A DNA stretch of 63,091 bases, the filler included, from Neolecta irregularis DAH-3 (Eukaryota), in NCBI GenBank assembly GCA_001929475.1. It is 10 parts of 10 records of this genome, joined end to end, with 100 filler letters (N's around TTAATTAATTAA, not from the genome) between each part and the next. Parts side by side here need not be neighbours in the genome. Positions count along the whole stretch, not along the records: positions 19,414 to 45,356 come from LXFE01003800.1; 9 more parts are not named here. One strand, written 5' to 3'. Position numbers and translations under genes: made by a program. Positions 25,182-25,773 of this stretch are shown here, in pieces. Each line of letters opens with the position of its first letter. Position 1 is the first letter of the stretch. The notes beneath the pieces were generated by a model. The model saw only the letters and a program-made list of their open reading frames with translations, had not been told where the DNA came from and did not search any database.

Positions 25182-25773
25182 TTAAAACAATCCAATGAGT
25201 TTCACTGCGGACTTGACAACAAACAACCCGGTTGTAAGGATTGCGTCAATGGGAACTCCACTGAGAAGTCCCTCAAGGAATCTCTTCTCAAGGTACCCAT
25301 CCTCAGTATAGCCCTCTGCCCGGACTTCTGCAAGAGTCTCCTCCTCGAGCTGTCGGGCACCCTCCTCACCAATTTTGGCTACTAGTAGAGGTCGTATCTC
25401 TGTATCGTAGAAGTCTTCTTGCTGATGGAGAATATCAGTAGCAGCCTCCGCATCGCCATCATCGACGGCCTTTTTCAATTGTTTTGCGGCATCCACGCCT
25501 AGAAGGGTAAGGGGCATACTTCATAGGTGATACAAACCTTTTTCAAGCATGGCAGCATTTTCTCCGCCAACCTTCGCCAGCTTGGTTAATTCTTTTACTA
25601 CAGCGTCCTCCATAGCTGGCTGGGTCAGCGCACTCAAAAAAAGGGTGAGCACCATCAACTTTTGCAACGGCGGCAGCAGGAGCCGGGGGTAGTGCTTGCG
25701 GACTGGCCAATGGCATAGCTGCAACCAACATGCTGCTAGCAGAAGCAAAGAGTATGACTTGGTGGAATTGCAT
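25182..25773 (-). CDS. 171-aa secreted peptide precursor: signal peptide, acidic pro-region, KR site, 32-aa hydrophobic/amphipathic C-terminal peptide
   Basis: Exons 25773-25653, 25615-25538, 25498-25182 (516 nt); introns of 37 nt (branch GCTGAC) and 39 nt; CTATAAAG at 25821-25828; ends ...YLEKR|FLEGLLSGVPIDAILTTGLFVVKSAVKLIGLF*. Confidence 0.75.

What the first reader, a model, noticed from the sequence alone, without database searches (positions are those of the whole stretch)
25182..25773. Hidden three-exon precursor of a candidalysin/antimicrobial-peptide-like amphipathic peptide
Seen: three pieces that the ORF track splits across frames splice via 37- and 39-nt GT-AG introns into a 171-aa protein. 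It has a signal peptide, a Pro/Ala segment, an acidic pro-region, a single LEKR site, then FLEGLLSGVPIDAILTTGLFVVKSAVKLIGLF and a stop (32 aa, central Pro, net charge about 0). A TATA box lies about 48 nt upstream. Established: Kex2 cleaves after KR; Candida Ece1 releases the 31-aa Pro-kinked amphipathic toxin candidalysin this way; amphibian AMP precursors use signal + acidic spacer + KR + peptide. Inference: an undescribed secreted membrane-active peptide (cytolysin or antimicrobial) kept inactive by its acidic pro-region. I see design similarity, not homology, to Ece1.
Basis: partly seen in the sequence, partly recalled or inferred. Interest (0 to 1): 0.85.

Follow-up and report, generated by a model that had tools for sequence, protein, structure and literature searches.

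The report
Orphan fungal prepro-protein with hydrophobic tail
A small three-exon gene of the fungus Neolecta irregularis, already deposited as a hypothetical protein, has no detectable relatives and is built like a secretion leader that could release a very hydrophobic 32-residue peptide, but whether it is cut, or what the peptide does, is untested.

Summary
On the minus strand, 25773..25182 splices through a 37-nt and a 39-nt GT-AG intron into a 171-aa protein.

It is not hidden. The same junctions are in the deposited 'hypothetical protein NEOLI_002220 [Neolecta irregularis DAH-3]', which starts 14 codons upstream. Introns of 34-45 nt are normal here. Codon usage supports the frame.

No relative turned up in any search.

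The architecture is a signal-like N-terminus, nine X-Pro/X-Ala dipeptides, an acidic helical region (net -12), an LEKR site that fits the Kex2 motif, and a 32-aa tail of net charge 0.

- The tail is hydrophobic more than amphipathic: muH is 0.08 overall and about 0.4 per half.
- It fails the fungal GPI consensus.
- It is a poor transmembrane helix on a recalled scale.
- Docking of the tail on the pro-region has only weak predicted support.

Best reading, at about 0.4: a pre / dipeptide / pro / Lys-Arg precursor that releases the tail. It is candidalysin-like in design only. Cleavage, secretion, activity and the presence of a kexin in Neolecta are all untested.

The parts
25822..25827 (-). TATAAA box. 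It ends 6 nt upstream of the deposited ATG (25815) and 48 nt upstream of the ATG at 25773.
   Evidence: Read from the sequence. That it sets a transcript start between the two ATGs is inference.
25813..25815 (-). Upstream in-frame ATG used by the deposited 185-aa model.
   Evidence: The exact spliced map of P0001 starts at 25815.
25653..25773 (-). Exon 1 from the second ATG (121 nt). It encodes the signal-like N-terminus (residues 1-19, 25773-25717), the run of nine X-Pro/X-Ala dipeptides (residues 20-37, 25716-25663) and the start of the pro-region.
   Evidence: for the coordinates; the Kyte-Doolittle 19-mer maximum is 1.85, at residues 6-24; the run is 9 dipeptides long, or 10 counted from residue 18, and 10 of 20,000 local shuffles reach 10.
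25616..25652 (-). Intron 1, 37 nt, GTGCTC...CTGAC...CCAG. If retained, the frame stops after 76 codons.
   Evidence: The junction is the same as in the deposited model P0001. A 40-nt in-frame alternative exists.
25538..25615 (-). Exon 2 (78 nt), part of the acidic helical pro-region.
25499..25537 (-). Intron 2, 39 nt, GTTTGT...CTTAC...CTAG. If retained, a stop follows 5 codons in.
   Evidence: The third intron of UBP6 has the same CTTAC element.
25281..25498 (-). Exon 3, first part: the rest of the acidic pro-region, ending in LEKR (25292-25281; Lys-Arg codons 25286-25281).
   Evidence: This is the only KR and the only L-x-x-R in the protein.
25185..25280 (-). Exon 3, last 32 codons: the hydrophobic tail. 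It reads as helix, Pro at position 10, then a second helix with a polar stripe D12/T16/K23/K27. Net charge 0.
   Evidence: Coding score in frame is 0.267 bits per codon.
25182..25184 (-). TAA stop codon.

Best explanation
[quoted passage not shown] It is restricted to that lineage. It encodes a secretory-pathway precursor with a pre / dipeptide / pro / Lys-Arg leader.

Proposed course (every step is inferred from sequence; none was shown here):
1. The N-terminal signal peptide takes the protein into the ER and is cut after V-A-A, around residue 19.
2. The following X-Pro/X-Ala dipeptides are substrates for a Ste13-type dipeptidyl aminopeptidase.
3. A kexin (Kex2/Krp1/Xpr6-type) cuts after L-E-K-R139 in the late Golgi.
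4. This releases the C-terminal 32-residue peptide: uncharged, very hydrophobic, helix-Pro-helix.
5. Until then the roughly 100-residue acidic, amphipathic-helical pro-region keeps that peptide soluble. The non-candidalysin peptides of Ece1p do the same for candidalysin.
6. The released peptide acts at membranes or hydrophobic surfaces, as a cytolysin, an antimicrobial or a repellent/hydrophobin-like surfactant.

It resembles candidalysin production in design. It is not a member of that family.
For: Gene:
- The deposited model is identical and has the same junctions.
- The genome paper states that 99.4% of its 5,546 models are supported by RNAseq (passages of PMC5309816). No per-gene data were seen.
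- The 5 introns of the adjacent conserved UBP6 gene are 34, 37, 37, 40 and 45 nt.
- A 34-nt intron in the GH76 gene joins Pfam profile positions 234 and 235 exactly.
- The coding score of the spliced frame is 0.263 bits per codon. All other frames are negative, 0 of 1000 shuffles reach it, and the signal, pro and tail parts are each positive.

Leader design:
- The hydrophobic N-terminus is shown.
- Nine X-Pro/X-Ala dipeptides lie in phase with a V-x-A cut site. 10 of 20,000 local shuffles reach the run length (a post-hoc test).
- The same order of parts is described for Y. lipolytica LIP2: a 13-aa signal, 4 dipeptides, a 12-aa pro-region with the Xpr6 Lys-Arg site (passage of PMC5768715). It is also described for XPR2 (passages).
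- LEKR matches the extended Kex2 motif.
- The pro-region has net charge -12 and amphipathic helices with 18-mer muH 0.37-0.49.

Against an anchor:
- The last 10 residues hold two Lys, so the fungal GPI consensus (passage of 10.1101/132464) is not met. The uninterrupted allowed C-terminal run is only 5 residues.
- The best 19-mer insertion sums are +3.9 to +5.3 on a recalled Hessa scale. The Eisenberg 21-mer means are 0.44-0.61, below the recalled 0.68 threshold.

Shielding (verdict 'weak support'):
- The pro-region and the tail, given as two chains, scored 0.51, against 0.03 for the best of 3 controls.
- The mark was reached by 51 of 78 solved complexes and by 2 of 108 mismatched pairs.
- At 0.60 or under it was reached by only 5 of those 78 solved complexes, and by all 4 mismatches that passed (of 180).
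- The runs agree in at least 76% of their contacts, and the partner's pLDDT is at least 63.

Precedent: the NCEPs of Ece1p shield an extremely hydrophobic peptide (passages of PMC12153327).
Against: - No RNA, protein or processing data for this gene were seen.
- No relatives exist, so conservation of the LEKR site or the tail cannot be tested.
- A KR arises by chance in 5,636 of 20,000 shuffles.
- The single-sequence model puts the KR inside a helix, at low confidence. That could hinder cleavage.
- A signal peptide plus a C-terminal hydrophobic stretch is also the usual signature of GPI- or membrane-anchored proteins. With Lys allowed in the tail, an S-G-V omega site at residue 146 fits the pattern.
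- The weak docking result fits an uncleaved helical bundle equally well.
- The presence of a kexin and a Ste13 homologue in Neolecta was not testable. One survey reports no KEX2 hit in two Taphrinomycotina catalogues (passage of PMC6339444).
- Trimming would meet a Pro-Pro bond after the fifth dipeptide. DPP-IV-type enzymes are recalled not to cut there.
- Donor sites GTGCTC and GTTTGT differ from the GTA donors of all 5 UBP6 introns.
Confidence: 0.4

Rival explanations
1. Uncleaved membrane anchoring. The protein enters the ER and its C-terminal hydrophobic stretch holds the acidic helical domain on a membrane or the cell surface. It could do this as a GPI-attachment signal (omega near S146) or as a C-terminal transmembrane or in-plane helix. 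The KR would then be a flanking or sorting motif, not a cleavage site.
For: - The N-terminal signal plus C-terminal hydrophobic segment is the classic signature.
- Kyte-Doolittle 19-mer means reach 1.73-1.76 in the tail.
- Eisenberg 21-mer means of 0.44-0.61 fall in the membrane-associated range.
- With Lys tolerated, S-G-V at 146-148 followed by a 13-residue spacer fits the GPI pattern.
- Dibasic motifs upstream of omega sites are recalled as plasma-membrane retention signals of yeast GPI proteins. This is recall, not checked here.
Against: - The published fungal GPI consensus is not met: there are two Lys in the last 10 residues, and the uninterrupted run is 5.
- There is no Ser/Thr-rich stalk and no N-glycosylation sequon.
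- Glu, Asp, Pro or central Lys sit inside every candidate 19-mer, and the recalled Hessa sums are +3.9 to +5.3.
- This reading gives no role to the X-Pro/X-Ala run or to the optimal LxKR context.
Confidence: 0.27
2. A soluble secreted (or luminal) small helical-bundle protein that is not cut at LEKR. The hydrophobic C-terminal helices form the buried core or an oligomer or lipid-binding surface. The active product is the whole roughly 130-150-residue protein, perhaps with its N-terminus matured by dipeptidyl aminopeptidase.
For: - The model is all-helical, with six helices.
- The pro-region helices are amphipathic, muH 0.37-0.49.
- The tail is weakly predicted to dock on the pro-region. The score is 0.51 against 0.03 for the best of 3 controls. 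The mark was reached by 51 of 78 solved complexes and 2 of 108 mismatched pairs. At 0.60 or under it was reached by only 5 of those 78, and by all 4 mismatches that passed (of 180). The runs agree in at least 76% of contacts and the partner's pLDDT is at least 63.
- The dipeptide run lies at the N-terminus of the large part, not of the tail.
- There is a sub-threshold Pfam match to the helical, lipid-binding CelTOS family: E 0.036, 15.0 bits against a cut-off of 27.2.
Against: - The models have low confidence: mean pLDDT 50.9, with 33-39 over the tail. The Atlas model has pLDDT 0.62 and no structural neighbour with both TM scores above 0.5.
- A tail of mean hydrophobicity 0.81 with 22 of 32 residues apolar is extreme for a soluble protein.
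- An exposed LxKR in the secretory pathway would normally be cut.
- The CelTOS match is below threshold and may come from composition.
Confidence: 0.18
3. Not a secretory protein, or not a functional gene. Translation might start at the Met in exon 2, giving a cytosolic tail-anchored protein. The extended N-terminus from ATG 25815 might act as a bipartite mitochondrial signal. Or the young orphan ORF may have no function.
For: - It is an orphan with no relatives.
- Intron 1 has an unusual donor. If it is unspliced, only a downstream Met could give the rest of the protein.
- The deposited N-terminus has K and R, and no acidic residue before position 54.
Against: - The codon score is as high as that of conserved genes, in all three parts including the signal region.
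- Both introns restore one frame, have branch-like elements and are of typical length.
- There is a TATA box at a fitting distance.
- The 14-18-residue uncharged hydrophobic core is signal-peptide-like.
Confidence: 0.08

Closest known systems
Yarrowia lipolytica XPR2 (alkaline extracellular protease) and LIP2 prepro leaders
   Same: The order of parts is the same: signal peptide, a stretch of X-Ala/X-Pro dipeptides, a pro-region, then a Lys-Arg site for a Kex2-type protease (Xpr6). This is from passages. The protein here has 9 dipeptides. Nine for XPR2 is my recall, not seen in a call.
   Different: - There the leader precedes a large folded enzyme (301-aa lipase, 32-kDa protease). Here only 32 hydrophobic residues follow the KR.
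- There is no sequence similarity.
- Processing is untested here.
Candida albicans Ece1p / candidalysin
   Same: - A signal peptide, and KR-directed Kex2 release of a peptide of about 31 residues.
- The peptide is extremely hydrophobic and alpha-helical.
- The other parts of the precursor must shield it in the secretory pathway (passages of PMC12153327).
   Different: - Ece1p is a 271-aa polyprotein with seven KR sites and eight peptides. The toxin is internal and is trimmed by Kex1.
- Here there is one KR, the peptide is C-terminal and needs no trimming, the pro-region is a single acidic helical domain, and the net charge is 0.
- No homology was found.
K2PP (Kex2-processed pro-domain) effectors of plant-pathogenic fungi (SnTox3, ToxA, SIX1/4/6)
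   Same: A signal peptide, an N-terminal pro-domain and an LxxR/KR Kex2 motif. The pro-domain is thought to help folding (passages of PMC8528282).
   Different: - In K2PP effectors the pro-domain is short, disorder-prone and in the first half of the protein. The mature part is a folded effector.
- Here the site is at residue 139 of 171, the pro-region is predicted helical, and the 'mature' part is a 32-mer.
KEPs (KEX2-processed repeat proteins), including Ustilago maydis Rep1 repellents and alpha-type pheromone precursors
   Same: These are secreted precursors cut by Kex2 into small peptides. Rep1 peptides are amphipathic and act like hydrophobins.
   Different: - KEPs are defined by at least three internal repeats with Kex2 sites between them. 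That pipeline also sets the C-terminal fragment aside (passages of PMC6339444).
- This protein has no repeats and one site, so such surveys would not list it.
Prepromelittin and amphibian antimicrobial-peptide precursors (recalled, no call)
   Same: - Melittin: a signal peptide, a pro-region of X-Pro/X-Ala dipeptides removed stepwise, and a helix-Pro-helix peptide.
- Frog peptides: a signal peptide, an acidic spacer, KR, then the peptide.
   Different: - These are animal families with no homology to this protein.
- Their peptides are cationic, while this tail is neutral.
- In melittin the dipeptides abut the peptide itself. Here they lie about 100 residues upstream of it.

Membership tests
Ece1p / candidalysin family | Detectable sequence similarity to Ece1p of Candida albicans, C. 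dubliniensis or C. tropicalis. | tested here: not met
   HMMER against 1.84 billion representatives found 2 proteins at E <= 0.001: the protein itself and a spurious repeat protein. The word-based search found 1 of 25 candidates, itself.
Ece1p / candidalysin family | A polyprotein with about seven KR sites giving eight peptides, with the toxin flanked by KR on both sides. | tested here: not met
   There is one KR (residues 138-139) and one KK. The peptide is C-terminal and ends at the stop codon.
[quoted passage not shown]
   Cutting at KR and KK gives at most 3 fragments, which by eye are not alike. No formal repeat search was run on the protein.
Pre / dipeptide / pro / Lys-Arg leaders (Y. 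lipolytica XPR2 and LIP2 type) | In this order: a signal peptide, a run of X-Ala/X-Pro dipeptides, a pro-region, a Lys-Arg site. | tested here: met
   In sequence the protein has a signal-like 1-19, nine dipeptides at 20-37, a pro-region at 38-139 and LEKR at 136-139. This shows design only.
Pre / dipeptide / pro / Lys-Arg leaders (Y. lipolytica XPR2 and LIP2 type) | Actual processing by signal peptidase, dipeptidyl aminopeptidase and a kexin. | not testable with these tools
   No proteomic or expression data were available. The Neolecta genome is not held, so kexin and Ste13 genes could not be sought.
K2PP effectors | A Kex2 motif (KR, RR or LxxR) after a disorder-prone pro-domain within the first half of a secreted protein. 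| tested here: not met
   The motif is met (LEKR). But it lies at residue 139 of 171, and the region before it is predicted helical.
Fungal GPI-anchored proteins | The C-terminal consensus [NSGDAC]-[GASVIETKDLF]-[GASV]-X(4,19)-[FILMVAGPSTCYWNQ](10) at the end of the protein, together with an N-terminal signal. | tested here: not met
   The regex finds no match. Two Lys lie in the last 10 residues. The pattern fits only if Lys is allowed, with S-G-V at 146. Dedicated predictors were not available.
Single-pass or tail-anchored membrane proteins | A hydrophobic helix of about 19-23 residues able to insert into a membrane. | tested here: inconclusive
   Kyte-Doolittle 19-mers reach 1.76. Eisenberg 21-mers are 0.44-0.61. 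Recalled Hessa sums are +3.9 to +5.3. No TMHMM or DeepTMHMM was available.
CelTOS (PF18659) | A Pfam score above the gathering cut-off. | tested here: not met
   15.0 bits against a cut-off of 27.2, E 0.036, over residues 52-117 of P0001.

The most novel reading that the evidence does not exclude
NEOLI_002220 is the founding member of a new, unrelated class of fungal peptide precursor. A single acidic helical chaperone pro-domain, with a melittin/XPR2-like dipeptide stretch, delivers one uncharged, very hydrophobic helix-Pro-helix 32-mer that a kexin releases. The 32-mer then assembles in membranes through its D/T/K/K polar stripe, or coats hyphal surfaces. That would be a candidalysin-like or repellent-like agent arising independently in an early-diverging, fruiting-body-forming ascomycete.
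Probability: 0.22. Interest if true: 0.7.

Novelty: new variant of a known kind. Interest (0 to 1): 0.45.

Why it matters
[quoted passage not shown] Repeat-based surveys of Kex2 substrates, by their design, skip single-copy C-terminal peptides.

If this precursor is processed as its sequence suggests, three things follow:
- A hydrophobic peptide carried by a dedicated solubilising pro-domain would have arisen more than once in fungi.
- A simple sequence recipe could be used to mine other genomes: signal, X-Pro/X-Ala run, acidic helical pro-region, LxKR, hydrophobic C-terminal 30-mer.
- A small, easily synthesised peptide would be available for membrane and surface assays, from an organism that I recall (no call) has not been cultured.

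If it proves to be an anchor, it is an ordinary orphan surface protein.

Tried and rejected
Expression and genome access
- no RNA holder was listed for the locus, so read laying could not be used.
- the whole genome is not held. Unannotated paralogues, kexin and Ste13 could not be sought.

Searches for relatives
- Word-based search: only the protein itself.
- HMMER against representatives: the protein itself plus P0002.
- BLASTP shows P0002 matches only residues 1-54, at 26-32% identity, repeated through a 1003-aa repeat protein. I rejected it as spurious.
- Metagenome scan: no answer. Repeated, where 222 pattern matches gave 0 confirmed relatives.
- tblastn of the window: only the locus itself. 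The next best hit has E 0.23.
- Pfam on exon pieces and on the whole protein: nothing above cut-off.
- PDB sequences: best E 1.2.
- ESM Atlas, twice: no usable feature hits. The structural neighbours are generic helical proteins. One row reaches TM 0.53 by query, but only 0.32 by the row.

Structure
- Single-sequence AlphaFold2: mean pLDDT 50.9. This is too poor for a fold search, so none was run.

RNA genes
- No tRNA in 20000-30000 and no Rfam match in 23500-26500. A structured RNA reading is rejected.

Gene-cluster reading (RiPP or secondary metabolism)
- Rejected. The neighbours are housekeeping genes.

Intron heuristic
- (ORF joining) listed candidates for 39 ORF pairs, but most pairs had several candidates. 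I used it only for the GH76 junction that Pfam coordinates confirm.

Coding test
- One search had a training exon out of frame. It was replaced.

Literature
- No paper holds the locus tag.
- 'Neolecta' with 'Kex2': 2 papers hold both terms, 1 was listed, and it was not read.
- 'Neolecta' with 'hydrophobin': nothing on whether Neolecta has hydrophobins.
- Matoba 1988 (PMC365584) is not held.
- Supplements of the genome paper, with its annotation methods and RNA-seq support per gene, were not seen and may bear on the junctions.
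Full report
**What is there**

The feature lies on the minus strand. Reading 25860..25150 in reverse complement and joining by coordinates gives this model:

| Part | Coordinates | Note |
|---|---|---|
| ATG | 25773-25771 | |
| Exon 1 | 25773-25653 | |
| Intron 1 | 25652-25616 | 37 nt, GTGCTC...CTGAC...CCAG |
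| Exon 2 | 25615-25538 | |
| Intron 2 | 25537-25499 | 39 nt, GTTTGT...CTTAC...CTAG |
| Exon 3 | 25498-25185 | |
| Stop | 25184-25182 | TAA |

Retaining either intron runs into a stop. TATAAA lies at 25827-25822, with 48 nt between it and the ATG.

**It is already annotated**

Exon 3 retrieves one protein from 5.8 billion: 1 with E <= 0.01 among 25 candidates. It is 'hypothetical protein NEOLI_002220 [Neolecta irregularis DAH-3]', 185 aa. An exact spliced map of that protein onto the window uses the same two junctions. It differs only in starting at an in-frame ATG at 25815.

The TATA box ends 6 nt upstream of that ATG. This is inference, and either start gives a signal-like N-terminus.

The genome paper says 99.4% of its 5,546 models have RNAseq support (passages of PMC5309816). 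I saw no per-gene data, and its supplements were closed.

**Are such short introns credible?**

Yes.
- The neighbouring, well-conserved UBP6 gene has 1,378 hits at E <= 1e-30. Its deposited Neolecta protein maps at 27654..26028 with 5 introns of 40, 37, 45, 34 and 37 nt.
- In the GH76 gene, a 34-nt candidate intron joins two ORFs whose Pfam matches end and begin at profile positions 234 and 235.
- The donors of the locus (GTG, GTT) differ from the GTA donors of all 5 UBP6 introns. This is a small caveat.
- The CTGAC and CTTAC elements 9-13 nt from the acceptors resemble those of UBP6.

**Is it coding?**

I built a codon table from 7 supported exons of the window (1,673 codons).
- The spliced frame scores 0.263 bits per codon. 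The training exons score 0.153-0.271.
- The other five frames score -0.15 to -0.50.
- 0 of 1000 shuffles reach the observed value.
- The signal part scores 0.216, the pro part 0.280 and the tail 0.267, all positive.
- One search was a faulty first run, with one training exon out of frame.

**Relatives**

No relative was found.
- HMMER against 1.84 billion representatives gave 2 proteins at E <= 0.001: the protein itself, and a 1003-aa repeat protein that matches only the first 54 residues.
- Pfam gave nothing above cut-off. The best were CelTOS at 15.0 bits against 27.2, and C166 at 14.2 bits against 36.7.
- PDB sequences: best E 1.2.
- ESM Atlas: no usable feature hit in two tries.
- Metagenome scan: 0 of 222 pattern matches confirmed.
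- There is no paralogue in the window.
- The Neolecta genome is not held, so unannotated paralogues cannot be excluded.
- The neighbours are housekeeping genes: FAD-linked oxidase, Mem_trans, UBP6, DEAD/DEAH helicases, GH76, alkaline phosphatase, an ABC transporter, a proteasome lid subunit and a glycosyltransferase. There is no sign of a gene cluster.

**Anatomy of the protein (171-aa numbering)**

- Residues 1-19: an uncharged hydrophobic core ending V-A-A.
- Residues 20-37: nine consecutive X-Pro/X-Ala dipeptides.
  - All six residues that are not Pro or Ala fall on odd positions.
  - A run of 10 or more, counted from residue 18, is reached in 10 of 20,000 local shuffles. This test is post hoc.
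- Residues 38-139: acidic (net -12 over 26-139), predicted helical and amphipathic (18-mer muH 0.37-0.49). There is no Cys and no N-glycosylation sequon.
- Residues 136-139: LEKR, the only KR and the only L-x-x-R. There is also a KK at 75-76.
- Residues 140-171: the 32-aa tail, net charge 0.
  - Whole tail: mean hydrophobicity 0.81 and muH 0.08 (Fauchere-Pliska).
  - Split at Pro10: a 10-residue helix with muH 0.42 and a 22-residue helix with muH 0.39 (Eisenberg).
  - The polar face of the second helix holds D12, T16, K23 and K27.

The tail is therefore hydrophobic with a narrow polar stripe. It is not a classical cationic amphipathic peptide.

**How it most likely works**

LEKR has the preferred Kex2 residues at P1, P2 and P4, and P3 is not Asp (passages of PMC8528282). 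The order of parts here is signal, X-Ala/X-Pro dipeptides, pro-region, Lys-Arg. That is the order described for the Y. lipolytica LIP2 and XPR2 leaders (passages).

In Ece1p the non-toxin peptides are needed to shield the extremely hydrophobic candidalysin in the secretory pathway (passages of PMC12153327). An acidic amphipathic pro-region could do the same here.

A prediction with the pro-region and the tail as separate chains gave 'weak support':
- The score was 0.51, against 0.03 for the best of 3 controls.
- The mark was reached by 51 of 78 solved complexes and by 2 of 108 mismatched pairs.
- At 0.60 or under it was reached by only 5 of those 78, and by all 4 mismatches that passed (of 180).
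- The runs agree in at least 76% of contacts, and the partner's pLDDT is at least 63.

This result fits shielding, but it fits an uncleaved bundle equally well.

I put the precursor-and-release model at about 0.4. A specifically membrane-active or surface-active released peptide is at about 0.22.

**Rivals**

1. Anchor (0.27). A signal plus a C-terminal hydrophobic stretch is the usual GPI or membrane signature.
 - The published fungal GPI consensus (passage in 10.1101/132464) fails, because two Lys lie in the last 10 residues.
 - Every candidate transmembrane window holds Glu, Asp, Pro or a central Lys.
 - Dedicated predictors were not available.
2. Uncleaved soluble helical bundle (0.18).
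3. Not secretory, or not functional (0.08).

A KR alone proves little: 5,636 of 20,000 shuffles contain one. Whether Neolecta has a kexin could not be checked. One survey found no KEX2 hit in two Taphrinomycotina catalogues (passage of PMC6339444).

**Comparison with known systems**

- It is not a member of the Ece1 family. There is no similarity, one KR rather than seven, and the peptide is C-terminal.
- It is not a KEP, because it has no repeats. The KEP pipeline needs at least 3 repeats and sets the C-terminal fragment aside.
- It is not a typical K2PP effector. The site is at residue 139 of 171 and the pro-region is helical.
- It shares its design with XPR2/LIP2 leaders and, from recall, with prepromelittin and frog peptide precursors.

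No paper holds the locus tag.

**Verdict**

I class it as a new variant of a known kind (Kex2-type propeptide precursors) and score interest at 0.45.

Noticed in passing
It is nine X-Pro/X-Ala dipeptides directly after a V-A-A signal-peptidase-like site. This is the substrate pattern of Ste13/DPP-IV-type aminopeptidases, and the same leader layout as Y. lipolytica XPR2 and LIP2. A Pro-Pro bond after the fifth dipeptide might stall trimming (recalled).
   Followed up: partly
window 27654-26028 (-): The adjacent gene is the UBP6/USP14 deubiquitinase of Neolecta irregularis (478 aa). It has five very short introns of 34-45 nt, all with GTA donors. One 34-nt intron (27128-27095) lies inside a 337-codon stop-free frame, so ORF tracks alone would misread it.
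   Followed up: yes
window 25954-26697 (+): A 247-codon stop-free frame lies antisense to the UBP6 coding exon. It is probably a by-product of the sense strand's codon usage, not a gene.
   Followed up: no
window 25115-25147 (+): A 33-nt pure purine tract sits inside a longer AG-rich stretch, 35-70 nt beyond the gene's stop. On the gene's strand it reads as pyrimidines. It could be a 3'-end or intergenic element.
   Followed up: no
window 23900-25180: About 1.3 kb between the Mem_trans gene and this gene has no ORF over 90 codons, no tRNA and no Rfam match. Its content is unexplained.
   Followed up: partly
window 4131-4098 (-): A 34-nt intron (GTGAGG...CTAAC...ACAG) in a GH76 (Dfg5/Dcw1-like) gene joins Pfam profile positions 234 and 235 exactly. 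It is a homology-based example of how short Neolecta introns are.
   Followed up: yes
whole window: The window holds 822 N in short runs. None lies within 4 kb of the locus. The deposited contig carrying this gene is 25,943 bases long, shorter than the window. I did not examine the N runs.
   Followed up: no
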